NCBI GenBank assembly: GCA_030395855.1
Contig: GCA_030395855.1_4325.1
Origin: a phage
Length of the DNA stretch: 44,883 nt
Reading direction: 5' to 3' (one strand)
Position numbers and translations under genes: made by a program. Under the pieces are notes generated by a model, which was not told the DNA's origin, ran no database searches, and saw only the letters and a program-made list of their open reading frames with translations. Of the stretch, positions 1 through 40,160 are shown in pieces; position 1 is the first letter of the stretch, and each line of letters begins with the position of its first letter.

Positions 1-85
1 AGTCAGTAAGCGACCTTGTGGCTATGTGGGATAGTGACCCGTACACTTTTCTCAGCCAGTACCAACAAGAGCCTGTAGCGCTGGG
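1..85. repeat. 85-bp duplication: window positions 1..85 are identical to 44799..44883 (wrap-around of a circular/permuted genome)
   Basis: Direct comparison of first and last 85 nt; implies unit genome of 44798 bp. Confidence 0.9.
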
Positions 86-14974: not shown

Positions 14975-17900
14975 ATGGCACAAATGATCAAAACAAACAT
15001 GAGGCTTTGTGATATGGCTGAAGAGATTAAGATTTATGGTGCTAAAGGTGGGAGCCAGAAGCAGCATCAACCAGTGGAGCAGGAAGACAACCTGATTTCA
15101 CTAAACAAGGTTAAGGTATTGCTTGCTGTAGCTGATGGAGAGGTGGATCCAAACTTCTCAATGAAGGATTTATACCTTGCTGACGTTCCGGTGCAAAACC
15201 AGAATGGTAGCTACAACTACGAAGGTGTTCGCGCTGAGTTCCGTGCTGGTACGCAGTATCAGGACTATATCGCTGGCCTTGATGGTGCAAATTCAGAGAT
15301 TCAGGCATCCAGAGAGATCACGAACGATACCCCGTACATCATTGCGGTTAACAATACTCAGCTATCAGCAATTCGAGTAAAGCTATACTGGCCTCGACTA
15401 GTTAAGCAAGAAAGCAATGGCGACCTGAACGGAACTACATGCGAGTATGCAATTGATCTTTCTGTTAATGGCGGCGCTTATCAGGAATACACTCGAGGAG
15501 TTGCAAACGGAAAAACAACTACAGGTTACGACCGCAGCATTCGTGTAAACCTTCCGGCAGAGTTCGATAGCGCCCTGGTTCGAATCCGTAAAATTACGCC
15601 AGATTCAACAAGTAGCACACTGGTTAATGGAATGCAGATTACAACCTATCAGGAAGTAATTGATGCTAAATTCCGCTATCCGCTTACGGCTCTGGTTTAC
15701 GTTGAGTTTGGTTCTGACTTGTTCCCTAACGGAATCCCGACAATCTCCATCAAGAAGAGATGGAAACTGATTCAGGTGCCGACAAACTACAACCCGGAGA
15801 CAAGGACTTACAGCGGCACGTGGAATGGCCTGTTCAAGATGGCATGGTCAAACAACCCGGCGTGGGTTCTTTATGACCTGGTAACAAACCGACGCTATGG
15901 TCTTGATCAGAGAGAGTTGGGTGTAGAGATTGATAAATGGGGACTGTACGAAGCTGCGCAATTCTGCGACCAGATGGTGCCAGATGGTAAGGGTGGGATG
16001 GAGCCGCGCTACCTATGCGACATGGTTGTGCAGAATAAAGTTGAGGCCTACACACTAATTCGTGATATCTGTTCAATCTTCCGTGGCCTGACTTTCTATG
16101 ACGGCGAAAAGATTGGCATCGTGGTTGATAAGCCTCGCAACCCATCTTACATCTTCACCAATGATAACGTTGTAAACGGATTGTTCAGTCGAACCTTTGC
16201 CAGTGATAAAAGCCTTTACACCACGGTAAACGTTCAGTTTGATGATGTTGAGAACAACTATCAACAAGATGTAGAGCCGGTATTTGAATTAGAGGCAACT
16301 CGTCGTTTTGGATTTAACCCTGTAGATTTAACTGCGATTGGATGCACGCGAAGAAGCGAAGCAAACAGACGTGGCAGATGGCTCCTGAAAACCAACCTGA
16401 GAAACGAAACTATCAGCTTCACTACCGGTCTGGAAGGCATGATTCCGATGATTGGCGAGGTAATTGCGGTCAATGACGCAGCATGGTCGAGCAACTATCA
16501 GCTAAACCTTTCCGGTCGTATTGAATCAGTTCAGGGATTGCAGGTTTTTACCCCATTTAAAGTTGACGCAGCGCCTGGTGACAGAATTCTCCTGAACAAG
16601 CCTGACGGAAGTCCAGAAGCAAGAACTATTGCAAGCGTATCTGAGGATGGTAGGACGATTAACCTTAACACGGCTTTCAGCTTTGTAGCTCAGCCTGATA
16701 CTGTATTCGCAATAGATAAGGATAATCTCGCTCTTCAGCAATATGTGGTGACCGGGATTCAAAAAGCAGATTCTGACGGTTCTGATTCGTTCCAGTATAC
16801 AATTACCGCGGTGGAGTATGACCCTAACAAGTATGACGAGATTGACTACGGCGTTAACATTGTTGACCGCCCGACTTCAATCGTTGAACCTGACAGATTG
16901 TCGCCACCTGATAACTTAACAGTATCAAGCTACAGCAAGGTTGTTCAGGGTTTATCTGTTGAGACGATGGTAATTGGTTGGGATAAAGCGCCATACGCTA
17001 AAACATACAATGTTCAATGGAGAAAGGAAAATGGCAACTGGATTAACGTACCCAGAACGGCTAGCACAGAAGTTGATATCGAAGGCATTTACGCAGGAAT
17101 CTATGACGTTAGGGTTCGCAGCGTATCAGATACTGAAAACGTGTCTTCTTGGTCTGATATTGTAACTGTATCGCTAACTGGCAAGATTGGACGCCCTTCC
17201 GCACCTACGGTTATCACGGCATCAACTGATGAAGTATTTGGCATTCGTGTTAAATGGGGATTCCCTGATGGCTCTGGTGACACCGCTTACACTGAACTTC
17301 AGCAGGTTCCAGACAATGGTGATGGTACATACAATCCTGATAACGCGAGCTTGCTTACACTGCTTCCGTATCCGGCCTACGAATACTGGCATACGCCAAT
17401 TCAGCCCGGTAAGGTGATTTGGTATCGCGCAAGATTGATCGACAGAATCGGCAATACCTCTGATTGGTCTAATTTCGCTAGAGGCATGAGTACTGACGAC
17501 GCCAACATCATCAACAATTATATCAAGGTTGATATTGAAGGCTCGGAAGGATTCAAATATCTAGAGCAGAATGCAATTGAGAAAAACCAGGACATTCAGA
17601 ATCAAGCCGAGGCAATCATCGAGAACGCACTGGCTAATGATGGTGATGTTCGCAGAATGACAAAGGAGAACGGCAAGCGTAAGGCTGAATATGTTCAGGC
17701 AGTGAATCTCATAGCCGATGAAACTCAGGCTCGAGTAGAGGCTCTAACGGCCCTTAAAGCGCAGATAGATGATGAGGTTGTTGGTCAGATTACAACAATT
17801 GAAACAGCGCTAGCCACAGAGACAGAGGCAAGAGCGACAGCCGACACGGCTTTGAGCGCAAGGGTTGGTAATAACGAGGCGGCTCTAAACCAGAAGCTGG

Positions 17901-18400
17901 ATGCTTTCTCTAATGCCACGTCAACTGGTGTGCAGTACGGAATTAGTCTTGGTCTGAAATACAATGGTCAGACTTATTCATCGGGGATGAGCATGGAACT
18001 TGTCGGCACTGGTGATAATGTTCGTAGTCAATTCATTTTTGACGCAAACAGATTCGCAATCAGTAACGGCATTGGTTCTGGTTCCGGACAATGGCAGCTC
18101 CCTTTCGTTGTCGAGAACGGAAACGTAATCATCCAAAGCGCAGTAATCGGCGATGGCTCAATTACTAACGCTAAGATTGGTAATATAATTTCATCAAATG
18201 ATTATGTAGTAGGCTCTCAGGGATGGGCGATACTGAAAAGTGGTGCTTCAGAGTTCAATAACACAACTGTAAGGGGCAGTCTTTACGCTGACAATGGTAA
18301 CTTTGCTTTTAACGGAACCAATAACACGGTTCAGATTAACAATAACGGAATCACTGTAAACTTACCGAACGGAGGAAGAGTGGTAGTTGGAGTGTGGTAA
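14975..18400 (+). CDS. central tail fibre / host specificity protein (lambda J-like)
   Basis: 1141-aa ORF following K/I-like genes; internal VPTNYNPETRTYSGTWNG segment resembles the conserved J core. Confidence 0.8.
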   Translation: MAQMIKTNMRLCDMAEEIKIYGAKGGSQKQHQPVEQEDNLISLNKVKVLLAVADGEVDPNFSMKDLYLADVPVQNQNGSYNYEGVRAEFRAGTQYQDYIAGLDGANSEIQASREITNDTPYIIAVNNTQLSAIRVKLYWPRLVKQESNGDLNGTTCEYAIDLSVNGGAYQEYTRGVANGKTTTGYDRSIRVNLPAEFDSALVRIRKITPDSTSSTLVNGMQITTYQEVIDAKFRYPLTALVYVEFGSDLFPNGIPTISIKKRWKLIQVPTNYNPETRTYSGTWNGLFKMAWSNNPAWVLYDLVTNRRYGLDQRELGVEIDKWGLYEAAQFCDQMVPDGKGGMEPRYLCDMVVQNKVEAYTLIRDICSIFRGLTFYDGEKIGIVVDKPRNPSYIFTNDNVVNGLFSRTFASDKSLYTTVNVQFDDVENNYQQDVEPVFELEATRRFGFNPVDLTAIGCTRRSEANRRGRWLLKTNLRNETISFTTGLEGMIPMIGEVIAVNDAAWSSNYQLNLSGRIESVQGLQVFTPFKVDAAPGDRILLNKPDGSPEARTIASVSEDGRTINLNTAFSFVAQPDTVFAIDKDNLALQQYVVTGIQKADSDGSDSFQYTITAVEYDPNKYDEIDYGVNIVDRPTSIVEPDRLSPPDNLTVSSYSKVVQGLSVETMVIGWDKAPYAKTYNVQWRKENGNWINVPRTASTEVDIEGIYAGIYDVRVRSVSDTENVSSWSDIVTVSLTGKIGRPSAPTVITASTDEVFGIRVKWGFPDGSGDTAYTELQQVPDNGDGTYNPDNASLLTLLPYPAYEYWHTPIQPGKVIWYRARLIDRIGNTSDWSNFARGMSTDDANIINNYIKVDIEGSEGFKYLEQNAIEKNQDIQNQAEAIIENALANDGDVRRMTKENGKRKAEYVQAVNLIADETQARVEALTALKAQIDDEVVGQITTIETALATETEARATADTALSARVGNNEAALNQKLDAFSNATSTGVQYGISLGLKYNGQTYSSGMSMELVGTGDNVRSQFIFDANRFAISNGIGSGSGQWQLPFVVENGNVIIQSAVIGDGSITNAKIGNIISSNDYVVGSQGWAILKSGASEFNNTTVRGSLYADNGNFAFNGTNNTVQINNNGITVNLPNGGRVVVGVW

Positions 18401-18405
18401 TAAAT

Positions 18406-18434
18406 AAAGCCCCTTAATTGGGGCTTTTCTTTTA
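18406..18434. terminator. bidirectional intrinsic terminator
   Basis: Hairpin agcccc-ttaatt-ggggct flanked by an A-run upstream and T-run downstream; between convergent genes. Confidence 0.7.
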
Positions 18435-19394
18435 GTAGAAGTTTGGGATAAATGGAAGTGCCATTGATATGTTCGTGTCGAAAGGAAACTGAGCGCCTGT
18501 CTGAGTTGAGTAGTTACCTATTACAGATCCAGGAACAGCCCTAACGGAGCCTCCAGACATGCAAACACCCTTGTATCGTAAGTTGTTATACCCTCCGGTA
18601 ACTCTAGTCGTAGCGCCGCACCTAAGCAGCGGGAAGAAACCACCATTTATTGACTGATATCCATTGCTTATTTGTATAAATCCACCAAGAACGAATGGGC
18701 GGCGAACACTTGAAAAAACAATCTGACCAGAACTATTTGACATTGTGAGTCCGGGTCCAGCTGGTGGTGGTTCATTCCTGAATATCACCAATTGAACGTA
18801 AGTACTTGCCGCAACATCATCTGTACCTCCGTAGGTTATATCCCTACACCATATTGTTGATCCATCTGATTCAAGTGATACGTTTGGATTATCCCACTTG
18901 CCGAATGGTATTCCGCTAACTGGTAGCGATGCTGCACCGTTAACCTGTATACCCCCAACCCATGCTGCTGACATTAGTCTCGAGTTGCTTGATATAGCAA
19001 GGAAATCAGTTGAGTTCTCAACAAGTATTCCAGGACTTGATGAGGATGAAGCCGGTAGTATCTCAAAGCAATTCCCTGCAAAGTCAATTATTCGACCATT
19101 AGCACCGTTAAAGTTACTAAGCGTTATCCTTCCAACTCCGTCATTAACCTTTTGGAATCCATTCATATAATAAACTTCAGGTATAACATCGTAAGCATCA
19201 ACGTGAACAGCCTTTATTGGTAGACAGAAGGCCGTAGAACCAGGTGACATTGTCAATCCAAAATCCCACGAACTTGCAGGAGTTGAAAGTCCATTGGTAT
19301 TTATTGAGCCAGTCACGGCTGGTGCCCTTAATCCTGCCGTTATTTCCATCGCTGGTCTTCCGTCATTGAGGTCAATCAATATACCCTGCGGCAT
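18432..19394 (-). CDS. hypothetical Gly/Ser/Asn-rich protein (320 aa), co-transcribed with upstream lipoprotein gene
   Basis: RBS AAGGAG before ATG at 19394; TAATG stop/start overlap with the lipoprotein gene. Confidence 0.6.
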   Translation of the reverse strand: MPQGILIDLNDGRPAMEITAGLRAPAVTGSINTNGLSTPASSWDFGLTMSPGSTAFCLPIKAVHVDAYDVIPEVYYMNGFQKVNDGVGRITLSNFNGANGRIIDFAGNCFEILPASSSSSPGILVENSTDFLAISSNSRLMSAAWVGGIQVNGAASLPVSGIPFGKWDNPNVSLESDGSTIWCRDITYGGTDDVAASTYVQLVIFRNEPPPAGPGLTMSNSSGQIVFSSVRRPFVLGGFIQISNGYQSINGGFFPLLRCGATTRVTGGYNNLRYKGVCMSGGSVRAVPGSVIGNYSTQTGAQFPFDTNISMALPFIPNFY

Positions 19395-19639
19395 TATTTC
19401 CACTCCTTGCTGCCATGATCTGCAATGGAGCCACCGTAACCGCCGCCAGCTTTGCTTTCAATGCCAGCGTAGCGAATATCAACCTCACCAGCCGGAACAA
19501 CTACGCCACCCTTCCATTTAGCTACGCACACACCAATTGCTTGCGTTGCACACCAACCATCCGGGCGAGGACCGGAAGAACAACCAACTGTCATGATTAC
19601 TGCTGCGGCGATGATTGCTGATTTGATTAGGTTAGTCAT
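19394..19639 (-). CDS. small lipoprotein (82 aa), candidate Cor-like superinfection exclusion protein
   Basis: N-terminal signal peptide ending in lipobox MTVGC; RBS GAGGAA; conserved promoter element upstream on minus strand. Confidence 0.55.
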
Positions 19640-19678
19640 TTTGTATTCCTCATTAAGTTGTTTCGTTTCGATGGAGTA

Positions 19679-19722
19679 ACTATACACGCAACCAGCGTTG
19701 GAGTCTTTAGCTATTTGTGCTA
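19679..19722 (-). promoter_or_regulatory. conserved promoter/operator-like element copy (minus strand)
   Basis: Minus strand reads tagcacaaatagcta, 23-nt spacer, TATAGT, then CCATCGAAACGAA leader. Confidence 0.55.
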
Positions 19723-19818
19723 TTGCATACGCGTAACCGATGTAACTCGATGTATACAATCTCATCCGCGGGAAATGATATACGATCTGTTACGCCAATT
19801 TACGCATTAGTTACATTA

Positions 19819-19882
19819 AAATATCTATATATATCAACCTTTTACTCTTATTATTATTATATATATATTACTGTGTATATCA
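19819..19882. repeat. AT-rich repeat block A (AATATCTATATATATCAACCTTTTACT + (TTA)n + TATATAT...TACTGTGTATA)
   Basis: Shares a 27-bp identical core and overall architecture with block B at 37846-37912; lies in a divergent intergenic region. Confidence 0.7.
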
Positions 19883-20183
19883 TGTAACTACTTCTATAGA
19901 GTGTTCCGGTTATAAATTTCTAACATGTACATTTATACAGTATTTAATCACACGCACACCAATGCACCCTCCGCTAGAAATGATATACACGATATACACG
20001 CTGGTTACATTGAGCTATAGCAGGGCTGAGGCTTTAAAAAACGTAACTAGTGGCAATACCTACAGGTAATTACAAGGATTCACGCGTAAACTTGAATCAG
20101 CGATTGGCAAAACCAATTGGACTGGTTACGGTGCCGAATATATAGTTAACCAATCGAAAGCAAACAACCAGAGAGATACAGAA

Positions 20184-20381: not shown

Positions 20382-21347
20382 ATGAGCTTTAAGGTTTTTA
20401 CAAGGGAAGAGCTATCAAACTCGGAGTACCACGCTGAGACCGACCACATATCTGGTAGCTCACTTGTCGAGATTATCCAGGGTTCCCCGGCAAAGTGGAA
20501 ATTTAAGCAGCGCAACAATAATAGCAAAGCTCTTAAGTTTGGCACACTGAGCCACACGATGATTCTCGAGCAAGATGTATTCGAAAAGGAGTATTTGCGA
20601 GCTACAGACCTTGATGCAATTGAAGGCTTAATTACAAGTCAGACTGGATTATCGGCAGCGTTGAAAAAAGTTGGTGTAGCTGGGACGTCAGGTAAGGGCT
20701 ATAGCGAGCTCGTAGAGATGATGTATCGCTCTGGTGAGGATTGGGATGTTAAGTGGCTAATTGAGCAGCAGGAGAGCGCTCAGGCGCTTGCTGAGGGCAA
20801 GGAGCTAGTTAGCGCAGCAGACTATGACAAAGTGGTAGCGATGCGCGAGGTTCTTTGCAACATTCCGGCATATGATGCAATTGTGAACAGCGAGACGGCG
20901 CAGAAAGAGCTGTCAATCTTCGGTGAGATTCTAGGTGTTGGCGTTAAGATTCGAATCGACCATGTTGATGTTGTTGATGGTGTCGTCAAGCTGACGGATT
21001 ACAAAACGACCGCAGACGCAAGCCCAGAAGGATTCGGTAAGTCTGCATTCTCTCACGGATACCTTGCAAAAATGGCTCTTCAGCGCGATCTGTTTGTGAA
21101 GGCATTCAACGAGAAGCGAAAGGTTGTTGTAGGGTTGTTGGCGCAGGAGAAGGTAGAGCCATATTTACCAATGCTGTACACCTTGACGGACGAACAGCTA
21201 CGAATTGGCCGCTTGCAGTATCTTGAGGCGCTCGCCACTTACAAGAAGTGTAAGGAGCTAGATATCTGGCCTGGATACTCGAATGGCATTACAGAGCAAG
21301 AGTTACTAGTTCCTGAATGGGCCATTAAACAATACAAAGAAATCTAA
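20382..21347 (+). CDS. putative PD-(D/E)XK-type exonuclease (recombination exonuclease)
   Basis: 321-aa ORF with IDHVDVV...KLTDYKT motif region (D...D/E-x-K-like); sits upstream of Erf and SSB genes. Confidence 0.55.
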   Translation: MSFKVFTREELSNSEYHAETDHISGSSLVEIIQGSPAKWKFKQRNNNSKALKFGTLSHTMILEQDVFEKEYLRATDLDAIEGLITSQTGLSAALKKVGVAGTSGKGYSELVEMMYRSGEDWDVKWLIEQQESAQALAEGKELVSAADYDKVVAMREVLCNIPAYDAIVNSETAQKELSIFGEILGVGVKIRIDHVDVVDGVVKLTDYKTTADASPEGFGKSAFSHGYLAKMALQRDLFVKAFNEKRKVVVGLLAQEKVEPYLPMLYTLTDEQLRIGRLQYLEALATYKKCKELDIWPGYSNGITEQELLVPEWAIKQYKEI

Positions 21348-21420: not shown

Positions 21421-22071
21421 ATGCAAATTTCAGAATCATGCAAATCAATTTTAAACGCACTACACACTGCTAAATCGCTATTTGCGAAGGCTGAAAAGTC
21501 GAAGCAGAACTCGCACCTCAAGAACAAATACGCCACCCTAGAAGACGTTTTGGCGGCGGTTGAACCAGGACTTGATGAGTGTGGGTTGGTGATGTTCCAG
21601 AGCGTGCTTGATGACGAGCAAACGAATCGTATGAAGGTTGAGACAAAGCTGTTTCACGCAGAATCTGGAGAGTGGGTTAGCTTCTTGATGATCGTACCAA
21701 TCAGCAAGCAAGACGCTCAAGGTTACGGCTCAGCCTTAACATACGCTCGTCGCTACGGAATCACGGCGGCATTAGGACTTAGCCAGGCAGATGATGACGG
21801 CAATCTCGCAGCGAAGGGTGTTAAGGATTTCAAGCGAGAACTCGAGAAATGCAATACTCTTGATGAACTTCGTAATGTTTGGAAAGAAGCCAAACAGTCA
21901 CTTGATGCGGCAGGATGGAAGGTCTTTGAGCCTCATATTATCGAGCGCAAAGCAGAGATTGAAGCAAATGCAATGACTGGCTTCAACCCAGCAACACCAA
22001 AGAAAGTTGCAGAAAAAAGTAGTCCTGAAGAAAAGATTGAAGTAGAATCACAACAAATCGACACATTCTAA
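21421..22071 (+). CDS. Erf-family single-strand annealing recombinase
   Basis: Motifs NKYATLEDV and ALTYARRYGI resemble the Erf family; position between exonuclease and SSB. Confidence 0.65.
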   Translation: MQISESCKSILNALHTAKSLFAKAEKSKQNSHLKNKYATLEDVLAAVEPGLDECGLVMFQSVLDDEQTNRMKVETKLFHAESGEWVSFLMIVPISKQDAQGYGSALTYARRYGITAALGLSQADDDGNLAAKGVKDFKRELEKCNTLDELRNVWKEAKQSLDAAGWKVFEPHIIERKAEIEANAMTGFNPATPKKVAEKSSPEEKIEVESQQIDTF

Positions 22072-22114: not shown

Positions 22115-22540
22115 ATGCACGTAATTACTGGTCAGATTCGCCGCGCTCCGTTCACCAAAGAGGGTCAAAACGCTAACGGTAACTGGAAAATGTTTGCGGT
22201 TGATTTAAGTGAGCGATACAAGGATAAAGATGGGCAGACTCAGTATAGTAACTATCGCGCCGTCTTCTTCGCGAATGAGTCAACGTTAGATTGGTACAAT
22301 GAGGCATTTCAAGATGGTAAAGTTGTCAGCGTTAGCGCAGAGACTCTTTCTGTTGATGTTCGCGATAAAGATGGCAAGACTTACGTAACAATCAACATGA
22401 ATAACCCTCGGCTTGAGTTTAGTCAGCGTGGTGATGGTGGCGTGCAACATCAGCAGCCTAGGCAGCAGCAACAATCACCACAGCAACAGCAGCAGCAACC
22501 GCAGCAGAAAAGCCAATTCGATGACGATATACCATTCTGA
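22115..22540 (+). CDS. ssb: single-stranded DNA-binding protein
   Basis: C-terminal acidic tip DDDIPF preceded by a Gln/Pro-rich linker; OB-fold-sized N-terminal domain. Confidence 0.85.
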   Translation: MHVITGQIRRAPFTKEGQNANGNWKMFAVDLSERYKDKDGQTQYSNYRAVFFANESTLDWYNEAFQDGKVVSVSAETLSVDVRDKDGKTYVTINMNNPRLEFSQRGDGGVQHQQPRQQQQSPQQQQQQPQQKSQFDDDIPF

Positions 22541-22544
22541 TAAA

Positions 22545-22573
22545 AGATAAAGCCCCTTTCGGGGCTTTTTATT
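22545..22573. terminator. bidirectional intrinsic terminator
   Basis: Hairpin agcccc-tttc-ggggct with A-rich upstream and T-rich downstream; between convergent ssb and tailspike. Confidence 0.75.
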
Positions 22574-25154
22574 AACCTATTTTAGTGTAAGTCCATTTGT
22601 AAGTAGCTGTGCCAACTGCAGTTATGCTAACAGTCCTTGAGCTAACATCCATTGTTGTAAATGCTGCCGTCTTAGTGACTGTAATTGATGATGTGGATCC
22701 ATCAAATAGAACGTCAGCTATGACGCTATAGTTTGTTCCAGCATTAGCCACCCAGGTACAAACCTTGTACAAACCTGGTGAGTTTGGTAATTCAAATAGC
22801 CCAGTTGGAACGCTTGCCTGTACCACCTTTGAACCTTTATCCGTATAAACACCATTAGTCTTCAATCCTTCTGATGAGTATGTCTGCTTATAACCACCAG
22901 CAATAGAACCACCCATAGGCTCAGTAAACCAGTTCACATTGCCCTGACTAACAACCGATATCGCAGGGGAGCCCCCTTTAGCTGACTGGAACCTACCGCT
23001 GAGAATATCAATCCTTGATGCCGAATCTGCCGCGTAAATTGTTACAGGGTATCCACCTGTTCCAGTGTAAACCAATCCGTCATTGTTAATATCATCTTCA
23101 GACGAGTCAATGATGACGTGAGAAGTTCCAGAGGCCTTGATATATGAAACCACACCACCAGAACCACCTCCAGTTGTTCTAACCTCGTTTTTCCATGAAG
23201 TTAGTCCGGAAATCCTGCCATTTGAGTTATTAAACCTAATAAGGCAGCAATCCTGAGAGCCGTTGGTGTCAATAATGTTACCTTCAACGTCCATCCCTAG
23301 TATGTTTACGCTATGACTGTTAATAAAGTTAATTCCAGCCCCACCATTAGAACCTGATGTTGATGATATATTACTGGCATCCATTGCGCAGTTAATCATT
23401 GTCACACTCATTACTGAACCAAATTCAAAAGGAGAAACGCAACCAGATGCGTAGCATGTTTCCATGAGAATTGTAGTTCCTGTGGCTTTAATGAATCCGT
23501 TTCTACAGTTCCTTGCCCATACGTTTTGCAGCTTTGTTTGATACGTTCCAGTAGTATCAAGGTAGCAACCCCACGCGCCATGAACTGTGCAATCTTTGAT
23601 GCATGAATTTTCTAGCCCTGTAGTGGAAGCAACATTAGAAGCAAAGTTGAATGCTATCTTTTTATCATTTCCTGATCTTACGGTTGGCGTAGTTCCTGGG
23701 TTATAAAAAATGTAAAGTCCCTCAATAAACACTTGATACATTCTTATGTTTTGCGCATCACCCTGAACCAGGGCAAACAGGTTTATGTTCCCATCAACTG
23801 AGATGAATGTTTGAGCCCTGTTAATCTGTCCCGTTCCTTCACCAATGATTCTTGTGCTATTTCCAATCCTTACCGTCCTGTTAATGAACATAAAACCTTT
23901 TGGTATGTATACCGTCTTGCCGGTATTAACTGCCGCCTGAAGCGCAACCGAGTCAAGCGACTCTTTAAGGTTTGATGCAAATGGATAAACAGCCCGTGCA
24001 GCCTCAATTGTAGAGAATTTAGATGACAGAGGAACTAAAGTACCATTGTTTGTAGCACCAAAATCCATGACGTTAACAAAGTCACCAAGTTTACTATCCT
24101 TACTCCTTTCTACAAACGAGGCCAATGTAGATTTGTAATTCATCGAACTGAATTGTGATTGAGTCTCTGTCTTTGAATAAACATCTGATCTTGGGTAAAC
24201 CTCTGATTTTGAATAAACATCAAGCAAACCCCTAGCTCTTTCAGCAGTGGCGCCGCCAGCCGACTTCCCGCCTTCAACCATAATGTATTCGCGTAAGTAG
24301 AACTTTCTTGATCCTTTAGCGCCCGTCATCCTGAGGTGAGTAGCCCTAAATGATGAATCAGAATTAAATGACGGATATATATCAATCTCATAAGAGCCTT
24401 GCGCTCCACTTGTGCCCCTAACACATATAAAAAGCGTAGCGTTGGCTGTAGTGTATGTCGCAGCTAGTGATGCTGGAACGTTTGTCATGTTAGATACTAC
24501 AACTCGATAATTACCACCACTTTTAAATTCAACTTGCTGCCAATCCAATGATGGCATAGATATTGTCGATGTGCTTGCGATACCCTCATTGGCTAGAGTA
24601 ACCAAAGTTGCAGCATCACCAGCGTTGGCAATGACATTAACTGTGTTGTTGTATGCCTCCTGCGCACTACTTGCGCTTGATTCAGCCTGAGCCTTGCTTG
24701 TAGCGGCAGCTTGCTGGCTGGCAGATGCAGCCGATTCGCTTGCAGCCGCATTTGTTTCGCTTGCCTTCGCCTCATCAACTAATCGTTGTAACTTACCGAA
24801 ATCAAAATCACCAGATTCAGCCAACTCAACAAGTGACGCAACCTCAGTTTCACGTGACTGATAGTAACGAAGAGTTTCCGCAACATCCTGAGCTAGCCCC
24901 TGAACGGTAATTCCATCATGCGCAAGGATAGCGTAACCAGTTCCAGCAGGAACAGTTTCGGAGTTAGGGTTGTAAACATTAATCTGCGTATCGCTGATAA
25001 TTTCTGAGATGGTGTAAATCTGTACTGGTTCAGTTTTAAATACAATGGTTGCACCTACGCGAATCAGTGTAAGAGGTGCTTTCCATGTTGTCCCGACGCC
25101 AGTCACCTCACCACTTGCTGCTAGAGAAGCTGTTCCTGAGTCATAAATTGCCAT
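22572..25154 (-). CDS. tailspike / polysaccharide depolymerase (beta-helix, pectate-lyase-like)
   Basis: 861-aa minus-strand ORF (start at MAIYDSG, RBS GGAGA); N-terminal Ala/Ser-rich linker; central NVMDFGATNNG segment typical of right-handed beta-helix glycanases. Confidence 0.7.
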   Translation of the reverse strand: MAIYDSGTASLAASGEVTGVGTTWKAPLTLIRVGATIVFKTEPVQIYTISEIISDTQINVYNPNSETVPAGTGYAILAHDGITVQGLAQDVAETLRYYQSRETEVASLVELAESGDFDFGKLQRLVDEAKASETNAAASESAASASQQAAATSKAQAESSASSAQEAYNNTVNVIANAGDAATLVTLANEGIASTSTISMPSLDWQQVEFKSGGNYRVVVSNMTNVPASLAATYTTANATLFICVRGTSGAQGSYEIDIYPSFNSDSSFRATHLRMTGAKGSRKFYLREYIMVEGGKSAGGATAERARGLLDVYSKSEVYPRSDVYSKTETQSQFSSMNYKSTLASFVERSKDSKLGDFVNVMDFGATNNGTLVPLSSKFSTIEAARAVYPFASNLKESLDSVALQAAVNTGKTVYIPKGFMFINRTVRIGNSTRIIGEGTGQINRAQTFISVDGNINLFALVQGDAQNIRMYQVFIEGLYIFYNPGTTPTVRSGNDKKIAFNFASNVASTTGLENSCIKDCTVHGAWGCYLDTTGTYQTKLQNVWARNCRNGFIKATGTTILMETCYASGCVSPFEFGSVMSVTMINCAMDASNISSTSGSNGGAGINFINSHSVNILGMDVEGNIIDTNGSQDCCLIRFNNSNGRISGLTSWKNEVRTTGGGSGGVVSYIKASGTSHVIIDSSEDDINNDGLVYTGTGGYPVTIYAADSASRIDILSGRFQSAKGGSPAISVVSQGNVNWFTEPMGGSIAGGYKQTYSSEGLKTNGVYTDKGSKVVQASVPTGLFELPNSPGLYKVCTWVANAGTNYSVIADVLFDGSTSSITVTKTAAFTTMDVSSRTVSITAVGTATYKWTYTKIG

Positions 25155-25178
25155 TGTGTAGAGTCTCCATTTGTAAAA

Positions 25179-25193
25179 TAGCACGAATTGCTA
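25179..25193. promoter_or_regulatory. palindromic operator-like site (TAGCACGAATTGCTA) without the usual -10/leader, just upstream of tailspike start
   Basis: Exact copy of the palindrome 25 nt upstream of the tailspike ATG, adjacent to the minus-strand terminator. Confidence 0.5.
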
Positions 25194-25218
25194 AAGTGGA
25201 TTGTAGCATCTTTATGAC

Positions 25219-25242
25219 ATAAAAAAACCTCCAGAAGGAGGT
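25219..25242 (-). terminator. intrinsic terminator (minus strand) after primase gene
   Basis: Hairpin acctcc-agaa-ggaggt; A7 on plus strand gives a T-run on the minus strand. Confidence 0.7.
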
Positions 25243-26168
25243 TAGTCTAGTAATTCACTTGCTTTGTATATTCTCTTTCTTATGCCTGACTTGAAAAAAT
25301 TACCATCATTTGGCATTACCACATCAAGATTGCGATCGTCAGCAACGGCGAGTAAATCAAAAGAGTGGCGAGCACAAGCGACGCGTAACTTGTAGTTTCT
25401 AAGCGCATAAGCAACCATTTCCATGTTGTAGCTGGAGTGGCAAACAAGCACGCAGCGGTTGCCAGCAGCAAGATGAACGCGAACACCATCAATCCAGTTA
25501 TCGACCAGATAAGCGTACTCACTATCCTTAAAGGCACCAACAACAGCAATAGACTGGCGAGTATAATCTTTTGCAGCATAACTAACATCTCCCTCTTCAT
25601 TGATAAACATTACGTTGCACATTTCTTCTGATATGCCGTCATTATAAGCCATAAAACACGGTATTGCGTGTATTAGTTCTCCTGATTTTGTTCTGCCAAC
25701 ATCAAAGCCAAACTCGCTATAGATACCCTCGTATGTACTGAGTGGAGTTGATTCTACTCTTTCCGTCCTTTCCATTATCTCTAAGCATCTTTCGTGGTCA
25801 ATCTGAGCGCCCATTTTGTATGGTGATGTTCTTGAAGCTCTTTTGTTTGCTTTTGATATAACCTCTACTGGAACTAGATTCAGCCAATCACCAAGCGTAT
25901 CTATTGTTTCACTATAACTCATTCCGGAACACTTCATTACCCAACCAACACCAGAATCATTTCCGCACTGGTTGCATATTGCTGCGCCATTTCCCTTTTC
26001 CTGACCTAACTCATCAGTGAAGCGAAACCTATCCCTGCCAAAGCAGTAAGGGCACGGACCATGTTTCTTGCTGAGATTCTCCTTTGTCCATCCAAGGTGC
26101 GATGAGTAGAATTCGCCCCACATTCCCTTCATTTTTGCTATCACTTCGTTCTTATCATGGTGACTCAT
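25242..26168 (-). CDS. DNA primase (zinc-finger type)
   Basis: N-terminal CPYCFGRDRFRF...CNQCG zinc-binding motif; RBS GGAGGT before ATG (MSHHDKN); conserved promoter element upstream. Confidence 0.65.
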   Translation of the reverse strand: MSHHDKNEVIAKMKGMWGEFYSSHLGWTKENLSKKHGPCPYCFGRDRFRFTDELGQEKGNGAAICNQCGNDSGVGWVMKCSGMSYSETIDTLGDWLNLVPVEVISKANKRASRTSPYKMGAQIDHERCLEIMERTERVESTPLSTYEGIYSEFGFDVGRTKSGELIHAIPCFMAYNDGISEEMCNVMFINEEGDVSYAAKDYTRQSIAVVGAFKDSEYAYLVDNWIDGVRVHLAAGNRCVLVCHSSYNMEMVAYALRNYKLRVACARHSFDLLAVADDRNLDVVMPNDGNFFKSGIRKRIYKASELLD

Positions 26169-26193
26169 AGTTACCTCCATAAACAATAAAGGC

Positions 26194-26236
26194 ACTATAC
26201 ACAATGTATAGCGCCACTGTTTATCAATTCGTGCTA
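26194..26236 (-). promoter_or_regulatory. conserved promoter/operator-like element copy (minus strand) driving primase
   Basis: Minus strand reads tagcacgaattgata, 22-nt spacer, TATAGT. Confidence 0.55.
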
Positions 26237-26716
26237 TTTCCCTTGCTCTTTAGCTTTTCGTGCTGCCTCGTTAGCGGCCTTAATCTTGCGCCATGATCGA
26301 CACTCTGGCTTGGTGGCTAATTCAGCCTCAGTAACAACACGCAGCATGTGACGCTTTTTGCAACGCAGAGTTAGCGGCTTCCCGTTACCGTCGAATTGCA
26401 AATCTGGTCGGCAGAATGTAGCGCGAAAACCCTCCCCAGTTCGTTTGTAGTAGTTGTGCGACAACTGAGCACCTCGCGCAGAAATCATACCGCGCTTAAA
26501 CCATTCCTCTACAGCCTGTGGTGTTACCTTTAATTGCTTTGCCATATTTGCCTTTGTGCCGAAGAAATCAAGAACTATCTCCAGGCGTGCCCGTAACCCG
26601 GCTCTTACTTCATCTTTTAAAACGTAGTAGCCTGAAGGTCGTTTTCGCTGCTTTTTATCTTCAGTGCGGATGGTTCCGTTATTGCCGTTAATGGTTCTCT
26701 TGTCGACTGTATTCAT
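26234..26716 (-). CDS. HTH DNA-binding protein (Cro/YdaS-like putative transcriptional regulator)
   Basis: Segment MAKQLKVTPQAVEEWFKRG resembles a helix-turn-helix; basic termini; RBS GAGGT; divergent from helicase gene. Confidence 0.55.
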   Translation of the reverse strand: MNTVDKRTINGNNGTIRTEDKKQRKRPSGYYVLKDEVRAGLRARLEIVLDFFGTKANMAKQLKVTPQAVEEWFKRGMISARGAQLSHNYYKRTGEGFRATFCRPDLQFDGNGKPLTLRCKKRHMLRVVTEAELATKPECRSWRKIKAANEAARKAKEQGK

Positions 26717-26817
26717 CTTATTACCTCGATAGCATTTTTTGTTAAAAGTCATCCTGATTTGATGGTAATATTGTACTCAATTAAACGCTACAAGACAATT
26801 TTTATAGGAATTTAGAT

Positions 26818-28812
26818 ATGTTGCCTATCGAGAAGCTGGTTGCAAACTTCGATAAAGAAAGAATTAAACAGATTCAGAAAGATTACCAGTTTGGCGAGAT
26901 AACCCCTTACGAGTTCCAGTGCGTTACATTTGATGCTATCGGAAAGGCTATTGGAAAGTACGAGGCACCATTTATCGCAGACCTTTCAGTATCTGCTGGT
27001 AAGACAATCATTCTCGCCATGATTGGAAAGCGCATGGAGCAATTGGGGTTGCCTTACATGGTTCTTTCTCGCCAGTCAGAGATAATAAGCCAGAACTCAG
27101 AAGAACTTCGTAATTTCGGCATCCGCAACAGCGTCTACTGCGCCGGACTTAACGTTAAATCAGTTTACTACCCAACCATAGTTGCTAGTGAGGGCACGGC
27201 AGCCAACGGCCTATTTAAGGGGCTTGGTGACTATGTTCCGGCAGTTATTGCAATCGATGAGTGTCATATGGTTGATCACATGGATATCGTTGAGGCTGAA
27301 GAGAACGAAGAAACATTTGAGCAAATGAGTACAAAGAAAGGCGAGATGGTTTTTAAGGATGGCGTTAATACTGGATTGCTTGGTACTGGTCGTGCGCAGT
27401 ACACGCTAATCATTACTGAGATGAAGCGTCGTTGTCGTGAGAAGTACGGGCGGGAGCTTCGTATATTCGGCCTAACTGGTAGCCCTTATCGAAACAATGA
27501 CCATATCGTCGTTAGCAATCCAAACATCCGTGGATTCTGGCGCAAAACAGTGATTCAGGTGCCAACCAATTACCTTGTTGATTTGGGTTTCGTGGTACCT
27601 ACTGTTTATGGCGAGGTTGGCGATTTAGGTTATGACCTTAGCGAGTTTGTTCCAGACGGTAGTGATGGCGTGAAAGACTTTAGCAAGAGAGAAATGGATG
27701 CAATGGCAGCGAAGATTCACGACAACCAATCCATGACTCAAAAGATAATGGGTTTTGTTGTAAAAATACTAGAGACTCGTAACGCCGCATTGGTAACGTG
27801 TGCTGGTAAACTTCACTGCGAAGAAGCTGCTGCAGCGCTACCAGATGGATACCCTTATGCCATCATCACCGACTCCACGGGAGAGAGGAGGCGCAGAGAG
27901 ATTCTGGCTGATTGCCAGACAGGGAAGTACAAAATAATATTCCAGATTGGTTGTCTAACCACAGGCGTAAACCAACCGCTGTGGGATACTAGCGTCATAC
28001 TACGCAAGATTGGCAGCCTAACCTTAATGATTCAGCTTCTTGGTCGTGGAATGCGAAAACTAAAAAAGGCGCACATAGATGCTGGATTTAAGAAAGATGA
28101 TCACCTTGTTTTAGACTTCGCTGGCGCGCTTGATGATATGGCGGAACTTTACTTTGACCCAATAATTGAGGAGATACAGGCCGAGAAGTTTAAATCTTCA
28201 AGAAAAGGTGGTGATGAGGTTCGCCAGTGTCCACAATGTGGATATGAGAACTCGCCATTTGCTAGACGCTGTAGCAATAAGATTAATGGCGTTAGATGCG
28301 ATCACTTTTTCCAGTTCACAACATGTGATGATATTACCGACCAACAAACAAAGGCGGTAATCAAGAAAGGTTGTGGAGCTAAAAATGACATAGCAGCAAA
28401 AGTTTGTCGTGAATGCGGAGAAATGCTTAAAGACCCAAACGCTAACCTGACTGGAAAGATGTATCGTCGCGGAGACTATTTGCGGGTTTATGATTTTCAA
28501 GTTGGTTTAACCAAGAATCAAACTGGCATTGTAGTTAAGTACAATATCATGGCCCACAACGGAGAAAGATTTAACGCTTGGGAGTTCTTTAATCCAGAAT
28601 CTGACCATAGGGTTTGTAGTGTGCTTTGGAAAAACTTTTGCCTTGATCACATTGAAAATCGCGCTGAAGCAGCACGAATTGGCAGACTGAAGAATGCCAG
28701 AATGATTATGACTAACGCAGATAAGTTTCGTGCGCCAGTCCAGGTGACACACCGCAAGAATAGCAAAGGAAAGGATATAATAGCTTTTAAGAATTTTGGA
28801 GAATTGTTATGA
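26818..28812 (+). CDS. superfamily-2 DNA helicase with C-terminal zinc ribbons
   Basis: Walker A SAGKT and DExH box IDECH; two C-terminal CxxC...CxxC clusters. Confidence 0.75.
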   Translation: MLPIEKLVANFDKERIKQIQKDYQFGEITPYEFQCVTFDAIGKAIGKYEAPFIADLSVSAGKTIILAMIGKRMEQLGLPYMVLSRQSEIISQNSEELRNFGIRNSVYCAGLNVKSVYYPTIVASEGTAANGLFKGLGDYVPAVIAIDECHMVDHMDIVEAEENEETFEQMSTKKGEMVFKDGVNTGLLGTGRAQYTLIITEMKRRCREKYGRELRIFGLTGSPYRNNDHIVVSNPNIRGFWRKTVIQVPTNYLVDLGFVVPTVYGEVGDLGYDLSEFVPDGSDGVKDFSKREMDAMAAKIHDNQSMTQKIMGFVVKILETRNAALVTCAGKLHCEEAAAALPDGYPYAIITDSTGERRRREILADCQTGKYKIIFQIGCLTTGVNQPLWDTSVILRKIGSLTLMIQLLGRGMRKLKKAHIDAGFKKDDHLVLDFAGALDDMAELYFDPIIEEIQAEKFKSSRKGGDEVRQCPQCGYENSPFARRCSNKINGVRCDHFFQFTTCDDITDQQTKAVIKKGCGAKNDIAAKVCRECGEMLKDPNANLTGKMYRRGDYLRVYDFQVGLTKNQTGIVVKYNIMAHNGERFNAWEFFNPESDHRVCSVLWKNFCLDHIENRAEAARIGRLKNARMIMTNADKFRAPVQVTHRKNSKGKDIIAFKNFGELL

Positions 28813-32105: not shown

Positions 32106-32107
32106 AA

Positions 32108-32662
32108 ATGACTAAATTATTTATCCTTAACGGACCGGCTGGAGTTGGCAAGGACACTATCGCAGATATTATGCTCGAGTTGGGTGTTGTTGATGGGAAA
32201 GTTTCATTCAAGTCACCAATGTTCGATGTAGCCAGGGGGATGCTATCAAAGGGTGAATTTGATTGGTTTATTGAGAACTACAACAACCGAGACGAGAAAG
32301 AAAAGCATCAAGAGATACTTGGCGGTAAAAGCATTCGAGAATTCATGATTTGGATTAGCGAGTCTGTAATGAAGCCAGTCTTTGGTGATGATGTCTTCGG
32401 TAAAAGGCTCGCCCAGTCACTTGGTGATGGTTGCTACATTTGCGCTGACGGTGGATTTACTAGCGAGATTAAGACACTGGTCGACGCTGGTGTTGAGGTC
32501 ACGTTAATTAGATTGCATAGGGAAGGGTACACATTTGATGGCGATAGTCGCTCATACATTCACGGGGTGTGCGCAAGAGAAATTGATGTTCGTGTTGTTG
32601 ATTGTGATATTAATGAAACATCAGCATTGGTAAGGCACGTAATAAATAGCACGAATTTCTAA
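32108..32662 (+). CDS. P-loop kinase, dNMP-kinase-like (paralog 1)
   Basis: Walker A GPAGVGKDT near N-terminus; about 45 percent identical by eye to the ORF at 39543..40160. Confidence 0.6.
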   Translation: MTKLFILNGPAGVGKDTIADIMLELGVVDGKVSFKSPMFDVARGMLSKGEFDWFIENYNNRDEKEKHQEILGGKSIREFMIWISESVMKPVFGDDVFGKRLAQSLGDGCYICADGGFTSEIKTLVDAGVEVTLIRLHREGYTFDGDSRSYIHGVCAREIDVRVVDCDINETSALVRHVINSTNF

Positions 32663-39360: not shown

Positions 39361-39542
39361 AAGGGGGTTCATCATGACTGGTATAATCCCCAGCATCAAC
39401 CACATGAATGGAAGTTAAGTGACGATATACGAACATAAATTCAGTAGCAGGGGTATTGATATGCTCCTGCACTATATAGACGAAAAATACTCAAAGCTCA
39501 TGCTTAAGACGCATGGCGGCACAATAACGAGGATTAACATAA

Positions 39543-40160
39543 ATGGCTAAAATCATCATTCTCAACGGTCCGGCTTCGGTTGGCAAAGACACTATCGGTA
39601 ACGCGCTTGCTAAAGATTACAATTGCATCCCGACGAGCTTTAAGATTCCTATGTTTGAGATCGCAGCGTCAATCCTGGGCGCTCGGGCGTTCAGCAAATT
39701 CATCACCGCTTATGATGATCGAGATCAGAAAGAGATGCCTCATGATTTTCTCGGTGGGAAAACCTGCCGTGAGTTCATGATCTGGATTAGCGAGTCGGTG
39801 GTCAAGCCGCTATTTGGCAATCAGCAGTTCGGTAAGCTGACGAGCGAGCGCATCCAGCTTTGTGACGAGGGATTTAGCTTTGTTTGCACTGATGGCGGTT
39901 TTCCTGATGAGGTTATCCGTCTGGTGGAAGACGGCCACTATGTTACCGTTGTGCGCCTATTTATGGATGGCAAGACCTTCGATGGAGATAGTCGTGATTA
40001 TATCCGCATCAAGGAATCGCATTTCCCTGATTATAAGCAATATAACGAGCATGACGTGCATCTGTTGAATGGTGATATTGACGGCGGCGTCATGGCAGTG
40101 GTTCGCGCCTGCGGTATCCGTCCTGCAATCGACGAGTGGGCCGACAATATTCCCTGGTAA
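39543..40160 (+). CDS. P-loop kinase, dNMP-kinase-like (paralog 2)
   Basis: Walker A GPASVGKDT; shared FMIWISESV and TFDGDSR blocks with the ORF at 32108..32662. Confidence 0.6.
   Translation: MAKIIILNGPASVGKDTIGNALAKDYNCIPTSFKIPMFEIAASILGARAFSKFITAYDDRDQKEMPHDFLGGKTCREFMIWISESVVKPLFGNQQFGKLTSERIQLCDEGFSFVCTDGGFPDEVIRLVEDGHYVTVVRLFMDGKTFDGDSRDYIRIKESHFPDYKQYNEHDVHLLNGDIDGGVMAVVRACGIRPAIDEWADNIPW

What the first reader, a model, noticed from the sequence alone, without database searches (positions are those of the whole stretch)
22572..25193. Tailspike/depolymerase gene placed apart from the tail module, convergent with ssb, with operator-only site upstream
The 861-aa beta-helix tailspike is on the minus strand between the recombination genes and the primase gene, more than 4 kb from the J-like tail gene. 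It is preceded by the conserved palindrome without the usual -10 and leader, suggesting it is regulated differently from other genes carrying the element. Its catalytic domain probably defines capsule or O-antigen specificity, so it is the likely host-range module and a natural site for modular exchange.
Basis: partly seen in the sequence, partly recalled or inferred. Interest (0 to 1): 0.5.

Follow-up and report, generated by a model that had tools for sequence, protein, structure and literature searches.

The report
Ordinary T1-type phage tailspike gene
This is the standard side tail fibre (tailspike) gene of a T1-like E. coli phage, sitting where every phage of this family keeps it; the one mildly new point is that it has its own promoter, with the phage's common regulatory palindrome placed on the transcription start instead of upstream.

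Summary
An 860-aa gene (minus strand, ATG 25154, stop 22572) lies between exoVIII-erf-ssb and primase. It is convergent with ssb, 4.2 kb from the J-like gene, and preceded by a perfect copy of the genome's promoter palindrome.

It is not unusual. The window is a Drexlerviridae (Braunvirinae) genome, and T1, Rtp, SU57, JeanPiccard and 2725-N35 all share this layout. The protein has three modules:
- a family-wide N-terminal anchor (residues 1-100);
- a variable shaft (about 101-340);

The receptor module recurs at 35-61% identity behind P22-type, T7-type and PF18668 anchors, always joined at residues about 306-360. Modular exchange is therefore well supported, and it is already described in the literature.

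The regulatory point needs refining. The palindrome is inverted relative to the gene and lacks the usual -10 and leader. An invariant extended -10 (TGCTACAAT) lies 6 nt upstream of it, so the palindrome covers about +1 to +15. In 15 other promoters it is centred near -42. This architecture is seen in 10 of 13 Drexlerviridae examined. It probably means factor-independent transcription that the palindrome-binding factor damps, but this is untested.

The parts
22572..25154 (-). Lateral tail fibre / tailspike CDS, 860 aa plus stop (stop codon at 22572-22574)
   Evidence: ORF and translation. PHROG tail-fibre families. 93% aa identity to Veterinaerplatzvirus T145P1. Homologues are annotated 'lateral tail fiber protein' in JeanPiccard and 'tail spike protein' in SU57.
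24855..25154 (-). Module A, residues 1-100: virion-anchor domain conserved across Drexlerviridae
   Evidence: tblastn found 901 phage records, almost all 44-53 kb Drexlerviridae. 54% identity to the T1 gp26 N-terminus. Residues 1-200 match PDB 7vyv/7lzj Klebsiella siphovirus depolymerases at E=4e-41. 92-100% identity within Braunvirinae.
24135..24854 (-). Module B, residues about 101-340: variable shaft, with long Ala/Ser-rich helices (87-189) and a compact beta domain (about 195-293)
   Evidence: Identity falls to 0-48% against SU57, JeanPiccard, 2725-N35 and Rtp, but stays 92-100% against T145P1. The full-length AF2 model is poor overall (pLDDT 47.9); only residues about 190-293 reach 72-88.
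22575..24134 (-). Module C, residues 341-860: right-handed parallel beta-helix receptor-binding and probably glycan-degrading module, ending in an all-beta domain
25165..25168 (-). Shine-Dalgarno GGAG, 10 nt upstream of the ATG
   Evidence: Read from the sequence. Invariant in 6 Braunvirinae.
25179..25193 (+). Conserved palindrome TAGCACGAATTGCTA, a perfect copy oriented opposite to the tailspike gene; it covers about +1 to +15 of the predicted tailspike transcript
   Evidence: The same inverted placement is seen in 10 of 13 Drexlerviridae, including T1.
25200..25208 (-). Extended -10 promoter element TGCTACAAT, the predicted tailspike promoter
   Evidence: Invariant in 6 Braunvirinae. TGnTAnnnT is present in all 13 Drexlerviridae examined, while the surrounding intergenic sequence diverges. 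Promoter function is inferred, not shown.
25219..25243 (-). Intrinsic terminator of the primase operon (AACCTCC-TTCT-GGAGGTT plus a T-run)
   Evidence: Annotated in SU57.
22549..22568 (.). Bidirectional terminator shared by ssb (+) and the tailspike (-)
   Evidence: The equivalent is annotated on both strands in T1.
26234..26752 (-). Cro-like HTH regulator (homologue of T1 gp23 / Rtp52), a candidate palindrome-binding factor by inference only
   Evidence: phrog_2856 'transcriptional regulator', E=1e-84. P22_Cro HTH match below threshold. No binding data exist.

Best explanation
The gene encodes the lateral tail fibre (tailspike) of a T1-like Drexlerviridae (Braunvirinae) coliphage, in its family-typical slot between ssb and primase.

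It is a three-module protein:
- a conserved N-terminal anchor that docks it on the tail;
- a variable helical shaft;
- a C-terminal beta-helix module that binds, and probably cleaves, a surface polysaccharide of smooth E. coli strains, most likely an O-antigen. This would give reversible primary adsorption before the J/RBP tip engages the terminal outer-membrane receptor.

The C-terminal module is a horizontally exchanged cassette, joined at residues about 340-360.

The primase operon ends at an intrinsic terminator just upstream, so the gene is transcribed from its own sigma-70 extended -10 promoter (TGCTACAAT). The phage's promoter palindrome sits near -42 in 15 promoters that lack a good -35, which is a class II activator position. 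Here it lies on the transcription start. The same factor that switches on the other promoters would therefore be expected to damp this one.

Shown: the sequence, the fold, the synteny, the mosaicism and the conservation of the motifs.
Inferred: enzyme activity, glycan target, promoter use and the direction of regulation.
For: Identity and position:
- PHROG tail-fibre hits.
- Identical synteny in SU57, JeanPiccard, Rtp, 2725-N35 and T1.
- The Rtp record already says 'putative tail fiber with beta-helix fold; similarity to T1 gp26 limited to N-terminal region'.

Anchor: 901 phage records; PDB 7vyv/7lzj N-terminus at E=4e-41; 54% identity to T1 gp26.

Exchange:
- Block-wise identity profile.
- The same module sits behind PF18668, PF09008, PF03906 and Calx-beta N-termini.
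- It occurs in a J-adjacent siphovirus slot, in an E. coli prophage next to an Acyl_transf_3+SGNH acyltransferase, and in a T7-like tail-fibre slot.

Biology of relatives:
- SU57 (module C 89% identical) makes haloed plaques (PMC7718038).
- Drexlerviridae lateral fibres are proposed to bind O-antigen and are conserved only at the far N-terminus (PMC8594841).

Promoter:
- The terminator, the extended -10 and the inverted palindrome are conserved.
- The 15 standard promoters have the palindrome 22-23 nt from a 5-6/6 -10, with only 2-4/6 in the -35.
- The 5' UTR has no significant RNA structure (z=0.67).
Against: - No catalytic residues could be assigned. Invariant acidic residues (D533, D592, E624 in full-length numbering) were not mapped onto an active site.
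- PF12708 is below its gathering score for this protein.
- The target glycan is unknown. JeanPiccard, with about 90% identical module C, was isolated on rough K-12, so the module is dispensable there.
- TGNTANNAT is not enriched in the window (12 minus-strand hits against 11 expected). The promoter call rests on position and conservation alone.
- Three of 13 relatives lack the palindrome, so it is not obligatory.
- No transcript or binding data for any T1-like phage were found in the searchable literature.
Confidence: 0.8

Rival explanations
1. The protein is a non-enzymatic lateral tail fibre. On this view the beta-helix only binds glycan or another surface structure, without depolymerase activity.
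For: - GenBank relatives are named 'lateral tail fiber'.
- The Pfam pectate-lyase match is sub-threshold.
- No catalytic motif was identified.
Against: - The top Foldseek hits are all enzymatic tailspikes.
- Several acidic residues are invariant across 30 homologues down to 37% identity.
- SU57, with 89% identical module C, forms halos (PMC7718038).
- Homologues occupy the tailspike slot of P22-like and T7-like phages.
Confidence: 0.2
2. The target is a capsule (K antigen or colanic-acid-like polymer), not the O-antigen.
For: - The N-terminal 200 residues are homologous to the Klebsiella K2 capsule depolymerases DpK2 and Depo32.
- Many structural neighbours are capsule depolymerases.
- Halos are typical of capsule depolymerases.
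Against: - The N-terminal homology concerns the anchor, not the receptor module.
- Module C homologues carry the P22 head-binding domain (PF09008). One sits next to an O-antigen-type acyltransferase (Acyl_transf_3+SGNH) in a prophage.
- The literature on this family favours O-antigen (PMC8594841, PMC13164509).
Confidence: 0.25
3. The palindrome upstream of the gene has no effect on tailspike expression. It could be a relic, a site used for another purpose such as looping to the primase promoter copy at 26222-26236, or it could even act positively.
For: - Three of 13 Drexlerviridae keep the extended -10 but lack the palindrome, and one Braunvirinae copy is degenerate.
- There is no experimental evidence for any binding factor.
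Against: - Placement and inverted orientation are maintained in Tunavirinae, Braunvirinae, Tempevirinae, Vilniusvirus and LF82-10.
- This holds for both centre variants of the motif (CGAAT and CTTTT), although the surrounding sequence has diverged.
- The full 22-nt element including its flanks (AAATAGCACGAATTGCTAAAG) is intact.
Confidence: 0.3
4. The gene is silent or poorly expressed because it follows a terminator. This doubt was raised for SU57.
For: [quoted passage not shown] BPROM annotated no promoter there.
Against: - The ORF is intact across hundreds of phages, with a strongly conserved N-terminus.
- An extended -10 and an RBS are invariant between terminator and ATG.
- Homologous proteins of Klebsiella relatives are named tail spike depolymerases in PDB (7lzj, 7vyv).
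Confidence: 0.03

Closest known systems
Drexlerviridae lateral tail fibre: T1 gp26, Rtp gp50, JeanPiccard bas02_0034, SU57 gp50
   Same: - Same genomic slot (ssb > < fibre < primase < regulator).
- Same N-terminal anchor: 54% identity to T1, 92-100% over residues 1-80 within Braunvirinae.
- Same upstream terminator / extended -10 / palindrome arrangement.
- Module C is 85-96% identical to SU57, JeanPiccard and 2725-N35.

   Different: - Module B (residues about 101-340) matches only T145P1.
- Rtp and T1 carry unrelated C-terminal modules.
- The backbone is about 89% identical to OzMSK and the BEK phages, which have a different fibre module.

Klebsiella Webervirus tailspike depolymerases DpK2 (PDB 7LZJ) and Depo32 (7VYV/7VZ3)
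   Same: Homologous N-terminal 200 residues (E=4e-41); trimeric beta-helix tailspike of a T1-like siphovirus.
   Different: - The receptor module is only about 10-13% identical; those enzymes cleave K2 capsule.
- In GH-K3 the gene is co-oriented with ssb and lacks the palindrome.

Podovirus O-antigen tailspikes (P22, Sf6, HK620) and Pseudomonas LKA1 gp49 / phi297 gp61
   Same: - Right-handed parallel beta-helix fold.
- Short sequence match over residues 355-455 to 4ru4/4ru5 (E=1e-12).
- Module C homologues at 45-54% identity carry the P22 head-binding domain.

   Different: - Different anchor and a different virion type.
- 10-20% identity to the solved structures.
- Hydrolase versus lyase chemistry could not be assigned.
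Dual-position regulator sites, as with lambda cI at OR2 (about -42 for PRM) and CRP/FNR class II sites versus start-site-overlapping operators (comparison from general knowledge)
   Same: A 15-bp dyad is centred at about -42 of promoters with a good -10 and a poor -35. The same dyad overlaps +1 at one promoter that has an extended -10.
   Different: - The binding protein is unidentified.
- The 5-5-5 dyad TAGCA-N5-TGCTA matches no E. coli factor site that I know of.
- The analogy is positional only.

Membership tests
Drexlerviridae lateral tail fibre (T1 gp26 / Rtp50 type) | N-terminal anchor domain of about 100 aa homologous to T1 gp26 | tested here: met
   54% identity over 59 aa to T1 gp26. 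901 records with at least 80% coverage of residues 1-110.
Drexlerviridae lateral tail fibre (T1 gp26 / Rtp50 type) | Gene located between the ssb/recombination block and the primase gene | tested here: met
   Window. Identical order in T1, Rtp, SU57, JeanPiccard and 2725-N35.
Drexlerviridae lateral tail fibre (T1 gp26 / Rtp50 type) | Variable C-terminal receptor module behind the conserved N-terminus | tested here: met
   Identity profile. DNA hits of most relatives are limited to the first about 340 nt of the gene.
Drexlerviridae lateral tail fibre (T1 gp26 / Rtp50 type) | Physical presence on the virion as side fibres | not testable with these tools
   Needs virion mass spectrometry or cryo-EM.
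Phage tailspike with pectate-lyase-like right-handed beta-helix (Pfam PF12708 / IPR011050) | Right-handed parallel beta-helix fold | tested here: met
Phage tailspike with pectate-lyase-like right-handed beta-helix (Pfam PF12708 / IPR011050) | PF12708 score above the curated cut-off | tested here: not met
   16.9-18.8 bits against a 27-bit cut-off. However, 14 of 30 homologues match at E<=0.01, best 3e-15.
Phage tailspike with pectate-lyase-like right-handed beta-helix (Pfam PF12708 / IPR011050) | Acidic catalytic residues in the groove; glycan-cleaving activity | tested here: inconclusive
   Invariant D364, D533, D592 and E624 in 30 homologues, but they were not mapped to an active site. Activity needs biochemistry.
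Phage tailspike with pectate-lyase-like right-handed beta-helix (Pfam PF12708 / IPR011050) | Homotrimer | not tested
   Only monomer models were run.
Standard palindrome-dependent promoter of this phage | Palindrome oriented with the gene, a -10 hexamer 22-23 nt downstream, and the CCATCGAAACGAA leader | tested here: not met
   The copy at 25179-25193 is inverted, has no such -10 or leader, and lies only 24 nt from the ATG.

The most novel reading that the evidence does not exclude
The tailspike promoter is a family-conserved 'inverse' member of the phage's regulon. A single phage factor, possibly the Cro-like gp23 homologue at 26234-26752, would activate about 15 promoters from a class II position and repress the factor-independent extended -10 promoter of the tailspike from +1.

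The slow-folding trimeric tailspike would then be made from the first minutes of a roughly 14-minute infection cycle and throttled later. That would also explain why the gene has sat among early replication and recombination genes since the common ancestor of T1 and Rtp.
Probability: 0.3. Interest if true: 0.5.

Novelty: already known. Interest (0 to 1): 0.25.

Why it matters
For annotation, this is a routine call:
- It is the lateral tail fibre/tailspike of a Braunvirinae phage.
- Its receptor module is shared with SU57, JeanPiccard, 2725-N35 and T145P1.
- That module is useful for predicting or engineering host range on smooth E. coli, with residues about 340-360 as the natural swap junction.

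The small added value is regulatory. It answers the doubt published for SU57 about whether the gene is transcribed at all, because a conserved extended -10 follows the terminator. It also points to a simple, testable circuit in which one dyad is used in an activating position at most promoters and in a repressing position at this one. Transcriptional control in T1-like phages is almost unstudied, so a TSS map and one gel-shift experiment would settle it.

Tried and rejected
- **GTG 25184 as the start codon.** Rejected: there is no RBS, and homologues start at MAIY/MALY.
- **A plus-strand promoter driven by the palindrome copy, antisense to primase.** Rejected: the hexamer 22-23 nt downstream is GACATA, GTCATA or GGCATA, and its conservation is explained by the terminator's T-run.
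- **An RNA hairpin role for the palindrome in the 5' UTR.** Rejected: MFE -4.2 kcal/mol, z=0.67.
- **Full-length AF2 model.** Poor (pLDDT 47.9). Used only for secondary structure and the domain at about 195-293.
- **Literature search for the motif or for T1-like transcription maps.** Nothing relevant was found, and the Rtp genome paper is not held. I therefore cannot exclude that the T1 or Rtp genome papers described the palindrome.
- **Exact-pattern scan of viral contigs for the extended -10 plus palindrome.** Only 5 loci, which adds little.
- **Link to the O16-specific tailspike group of the extended BASEL collection.** None of those phages appeared among the tblastn hits, so no serotype can be assigned.
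Full report
**What the window is**

The window is a complete, circularly overlapped genome. Bases 1-85 repeat at 44799-44883. It belongs to a T1-like siphovirus of the Drexlerviridae, subfamily Braunvirinae.

The structural half is about 89% identical to phages OzMSK, BEK6 and Veterinaerplatzvirus T145P1. The finding region itself is 90.6% identical over its full length to T145P1.

**Checking the observation**

The longest ORF is 22572..25184, starting at a GTG. The real start is the ATG at 25154:
- GGAG lies 10 nt upstream of it.
- The product begins MAIYDSGTAS, which aligns from residue 1 with T1 gp26 (54% identity) and with the Klebsiella depolymerases in PDB 7vyv/7lzj.

The protein is therefore 860 aa.

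PHROG assignments confirm the neighbours:

| Gene | Coordinates | Strand |
|---|---|---|
| J-like central fibre | 14975-18400 | + |
| DUF6453 protein | 18432-19403 | - |
| Cor-like lipoprotein | 19394-19765 | - |
| exoVIII | 20382-21347 | + |
| Erf | 21421-22071 | + |
| SSB | 22115-22540 | + |
| tailspike | 22572-25154 | - |
| primase | 25242-26204 | - |
| HTH regulator | 26234-26752 | - |
| helicase | 26818-28812 | + |

The Pfam families of the DUF6453 protein and the lipoprotein come. ssb and the tailspike are convergent on a bidirectional terminator at 22549-22568. The gap from the J-like gene is 4171 nt. All descriptive parts of the finding are correct.

**The position is canonical, not odd**

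The order exoVIII-erf-ssb > < fibre < primase < regulator, helicase > is identical in:
- SU57, JeanPiccard (Bas02), Rtp and 2725-N35;
- T1 itself, as gp27 > terminators < gp26 < gp24 < gp23.

The Rtp record already reads 'putative tail fiber with beta-helix fold; sequence similarity to gp26 of phage T1 limited to N-terminal region'. [quoted passage not shown] The BASEL paper states that the Drexlerviridae lateral-fibre locus is very diverse and conserved only at the far N-terminus (PMC8594841).

In Webervirus GH-K3 the gene is co-oriented with ssb, so the cassette can be inverted within the family.

**Protein architecture**

*Module A (residues 1-100).* This is the family anchor. tblastn finds 901 phage records, almost all 44-53 kb Drexlerviridae of Escherichia, Klebsiella, Shigella, Salmonella and others. 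There are faint matches (33-36% identity) to side-fibre N-termini of lambdoid phages HK75 and HK446.

*Module B (residues about 101-340).* This is variable. Identity to SU57, JeanPiccard, 2725-N35 and Rtp falls to 0-48%; only T145P1 shares it, at 92-100%. The full-length AF2 model is poor (pLDDT 47.9). It consistently shows long helices at 87-189 and a compact beta domain at about 195-293 (pLDDT 72-88).

*Module C (residues 341-860).*
- It models with high confidence (pLDDT 89.4, pTM 0.77) as a long beta-helix with a C-terminal all-beta domain.
- Foldseek against PDB returns phage tailspikes first: phi297 gp61, LKA1 gp49, Acinetobacter tailspikes, Sf6 and Det7.
- Sequence identity to all of these is 8-20%.
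- PF12708 is below threshold for this protein, but 14 of 30 homologues match it.

The fold class is therefore secure. The chemistry (hydrolase, lyase or binding only) is not.

**Modular exchange**

A search with module C found 107 proteins.

- Those at 88% identity or more are almost all Drexlerviridae-type fibres of 777-860 aa. Among cultured phages only eight Braunvirinae records carry the module at about 89% or more.
- At 35-61% identity the same module sits behind other adaptors: PF18668 Tail_spike_N (11 of 30 sampled), the P22 head-binding domain PF09008, the T7 fibre N-terminus PF03906, and a Calx-beta domain.
- Homology always begins at window residues about 306-360.

The genomic contexts confirm three different virion types:
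- directly downstream of a J-like gene in a 43.6-kb siphovirus contig;
- in an E. coli prophage, beside an Acyl_transf_3+SGNH acyltransferase and the lysis cassette;
- in the tail-fibre slot of a T7-like podovirus.

The prophage neighbour and the P22-type anchors favour an O-antigen target, but only by inference. The extended BASEL study describes exactly this behaviour for pectin-lyase-like tailspike domains (PMC11990801).

SU57, with 89% identical module C, makes haloed plaques. JeanPiccard, also about 90% identical, grows on rough K-12, and its terminal receptor was inferred to be LptD. The fibre is therefore an accessory host-range determinant for smooth strains, not the only one.

**The upstream element: standard promoters**

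The genome carries a 22-nt element, AAATAGCACGAATTGCTAAAG. The core dyad has 22 matches at up to 3 mismatches, against 1.5 expected.

In 15 copies:
- it is oriented with the downstream gene;
- a 5-6/6 -10 hexamer follows at 22-23 nt, then the leader TTAC(C/T)CCATCGAAACGAA;
- the best -35 match is only 2-4/6;
- only 3 of the 15 have an extended-10 TG.

With the -10 at -12 to -7, the dyad centre falls at about -42. That is the class II activator position (my inference from general promoter knowledge).

**The upstream element: the tailspike copy**

The copy at 25179-25193 is perfect but points away from the tailspike gene. It ends 24 nt from the ATG and has neither the standard -10 nor the leader.

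This is an extended -10, lying 6 nt upstream of the dyad and just after the primase terminator.

In six Braunvirinae the whole intergenic region is 96% conserved. I then compared 13 Drexlerviridae from eight lineages: Braunvirinae, Tunavirinae including T1, Tempevirinae, Vilniusvirus, LF82-10, Kyungwonvirus, Rogunavirinae and Webervirus.
- All 13 have a terminator followed by TGnTAnnnT.
- Ten have the inverted dyad 6-12 nt further on and 18-24 nt before the ATG. This holds for both centre variants of the motif.
- One Braunvirinae copy is degenerate.
- SG01, phiKP26 and GH-K3 lack the dyad.

The dyad therefore covers about +1 to +21 of the predicted transcript. There is no significant RNA fold and no plus-strand promoter.

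**Most likely mechanism**

My reading is that transcription of the tailspike is factor-independent and is limited by whatever binds the dyad. The Cro-like regulator two genes upstream is the obvious candidate, but nothing ties it to the site.

This answers the published doubt that the SU57 gene might not be transcribed because of the terminator.

The regulator-helicase divergent region also carries factor-independent promoters: TGGTAATAT on the plus strand, and TTGTCT-17-TACAAT on the minus strand. This fits an early-regulator cascade, but that too is inference.

**Verdict**

The gene, its position and its modularity are real and already known for this family. The closest relatives are deposited and annotated with the same function.

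The regulatory refinement did not turn up in the literature I could search, but the T1 and Rtp genome papers could not be read. It rests on conservation only.

Interest is low to modest.

Noticed in passing
window 1-85 and 44799-44883: Perfect 85-bp direct repeat at the two ends of the window. This is most simply the assembly overlap of a circularly permuted or terminally redundant genome of about 44.8 kb.
   Followed up: no
window 687, 8540, 19722(-), 21349, 26236(-), 29226, 31559, 32647, 36914(-), 37559(-), 38827, 39345, 40162, 40684, 41761: Fifteen promoters share one design: the dyad TAGCAC(GAAT/TTTT)TGCTA, 22-23 nt, TATAGT-like -10, then a conserved leader CCATCGAAACGAA before the RBS. 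The -35 is poor (2-4/6). This looks like a single activator-dependent regulon covering both structural and early genes. The conserved leader is unexplained.
   Followed up: partly
window 19766-20183: A non-coding, AT-rich stretch of about 420 nt with repeats (GATATACACG, TATATATATCAACCT). At its end is a promoter with the standard -10 and leader (TATAGTTAACCAATCGAAAGC), but a different inverted repeat (TTGGCAAAACCAA) where the usual dyad would be. It could be an origin or an early control region.
   Followed up: no
window 26753-26817: The divergent regulator/helicase intergenic region holds overlapping face-to-face promoters without the dyad: an extended -10 TGGTAATAT on the plus strand, and TTGTCT-17-TACAAT on the minus strand. 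These are candidate factor-independent early promoters.
   Followed up: partly
window 32106-32403 and 39541-39835: Two paralogous P-loop (GPAGVGKDTI-type) genes, 72-79% identical at DNA level and about 7.4 kb apart (families D4 and D11).
   Followed up: no
window 18432-19765 (-): A DUF6453 protein and a Cor-like phage lipoprotein lie on the minus strand directly downstream of the J-like gene. This is the 'bona fide RBP' / superinfection-exclusion locus of small siphoviruses, which sets the terminal receptor (PMC8594841).
   Followed up: no
L007 (Klebsiella phage GH-K3) 942-3327: In Webervirus the fibre gene follows ssb on the same strand instead of converging on it. It keeps the extended -10 but has no dyad, so the cassette has been inverted within the family.
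   Followed up: partly
window 24855-25154 (residues 1-100): The fibre anchor has weak similarity (33-36% identity over about 95 aa) to tail-fibre N-termini of lambdoid phages HK75, HK446 and ECP1. This hints at a docking domain shared with lambda-type side fibres.
   Followed up: no
L018 8292-10007: In an E. coli prophage, the homologous tailspike (53% identity in module C) is adjacent to an Acyl_transf_3+SGNH acyltransferase. This is the arrangement seen for O-antigen-modifying (seroconversion) genes next to tailspikes.
   Followed up: no
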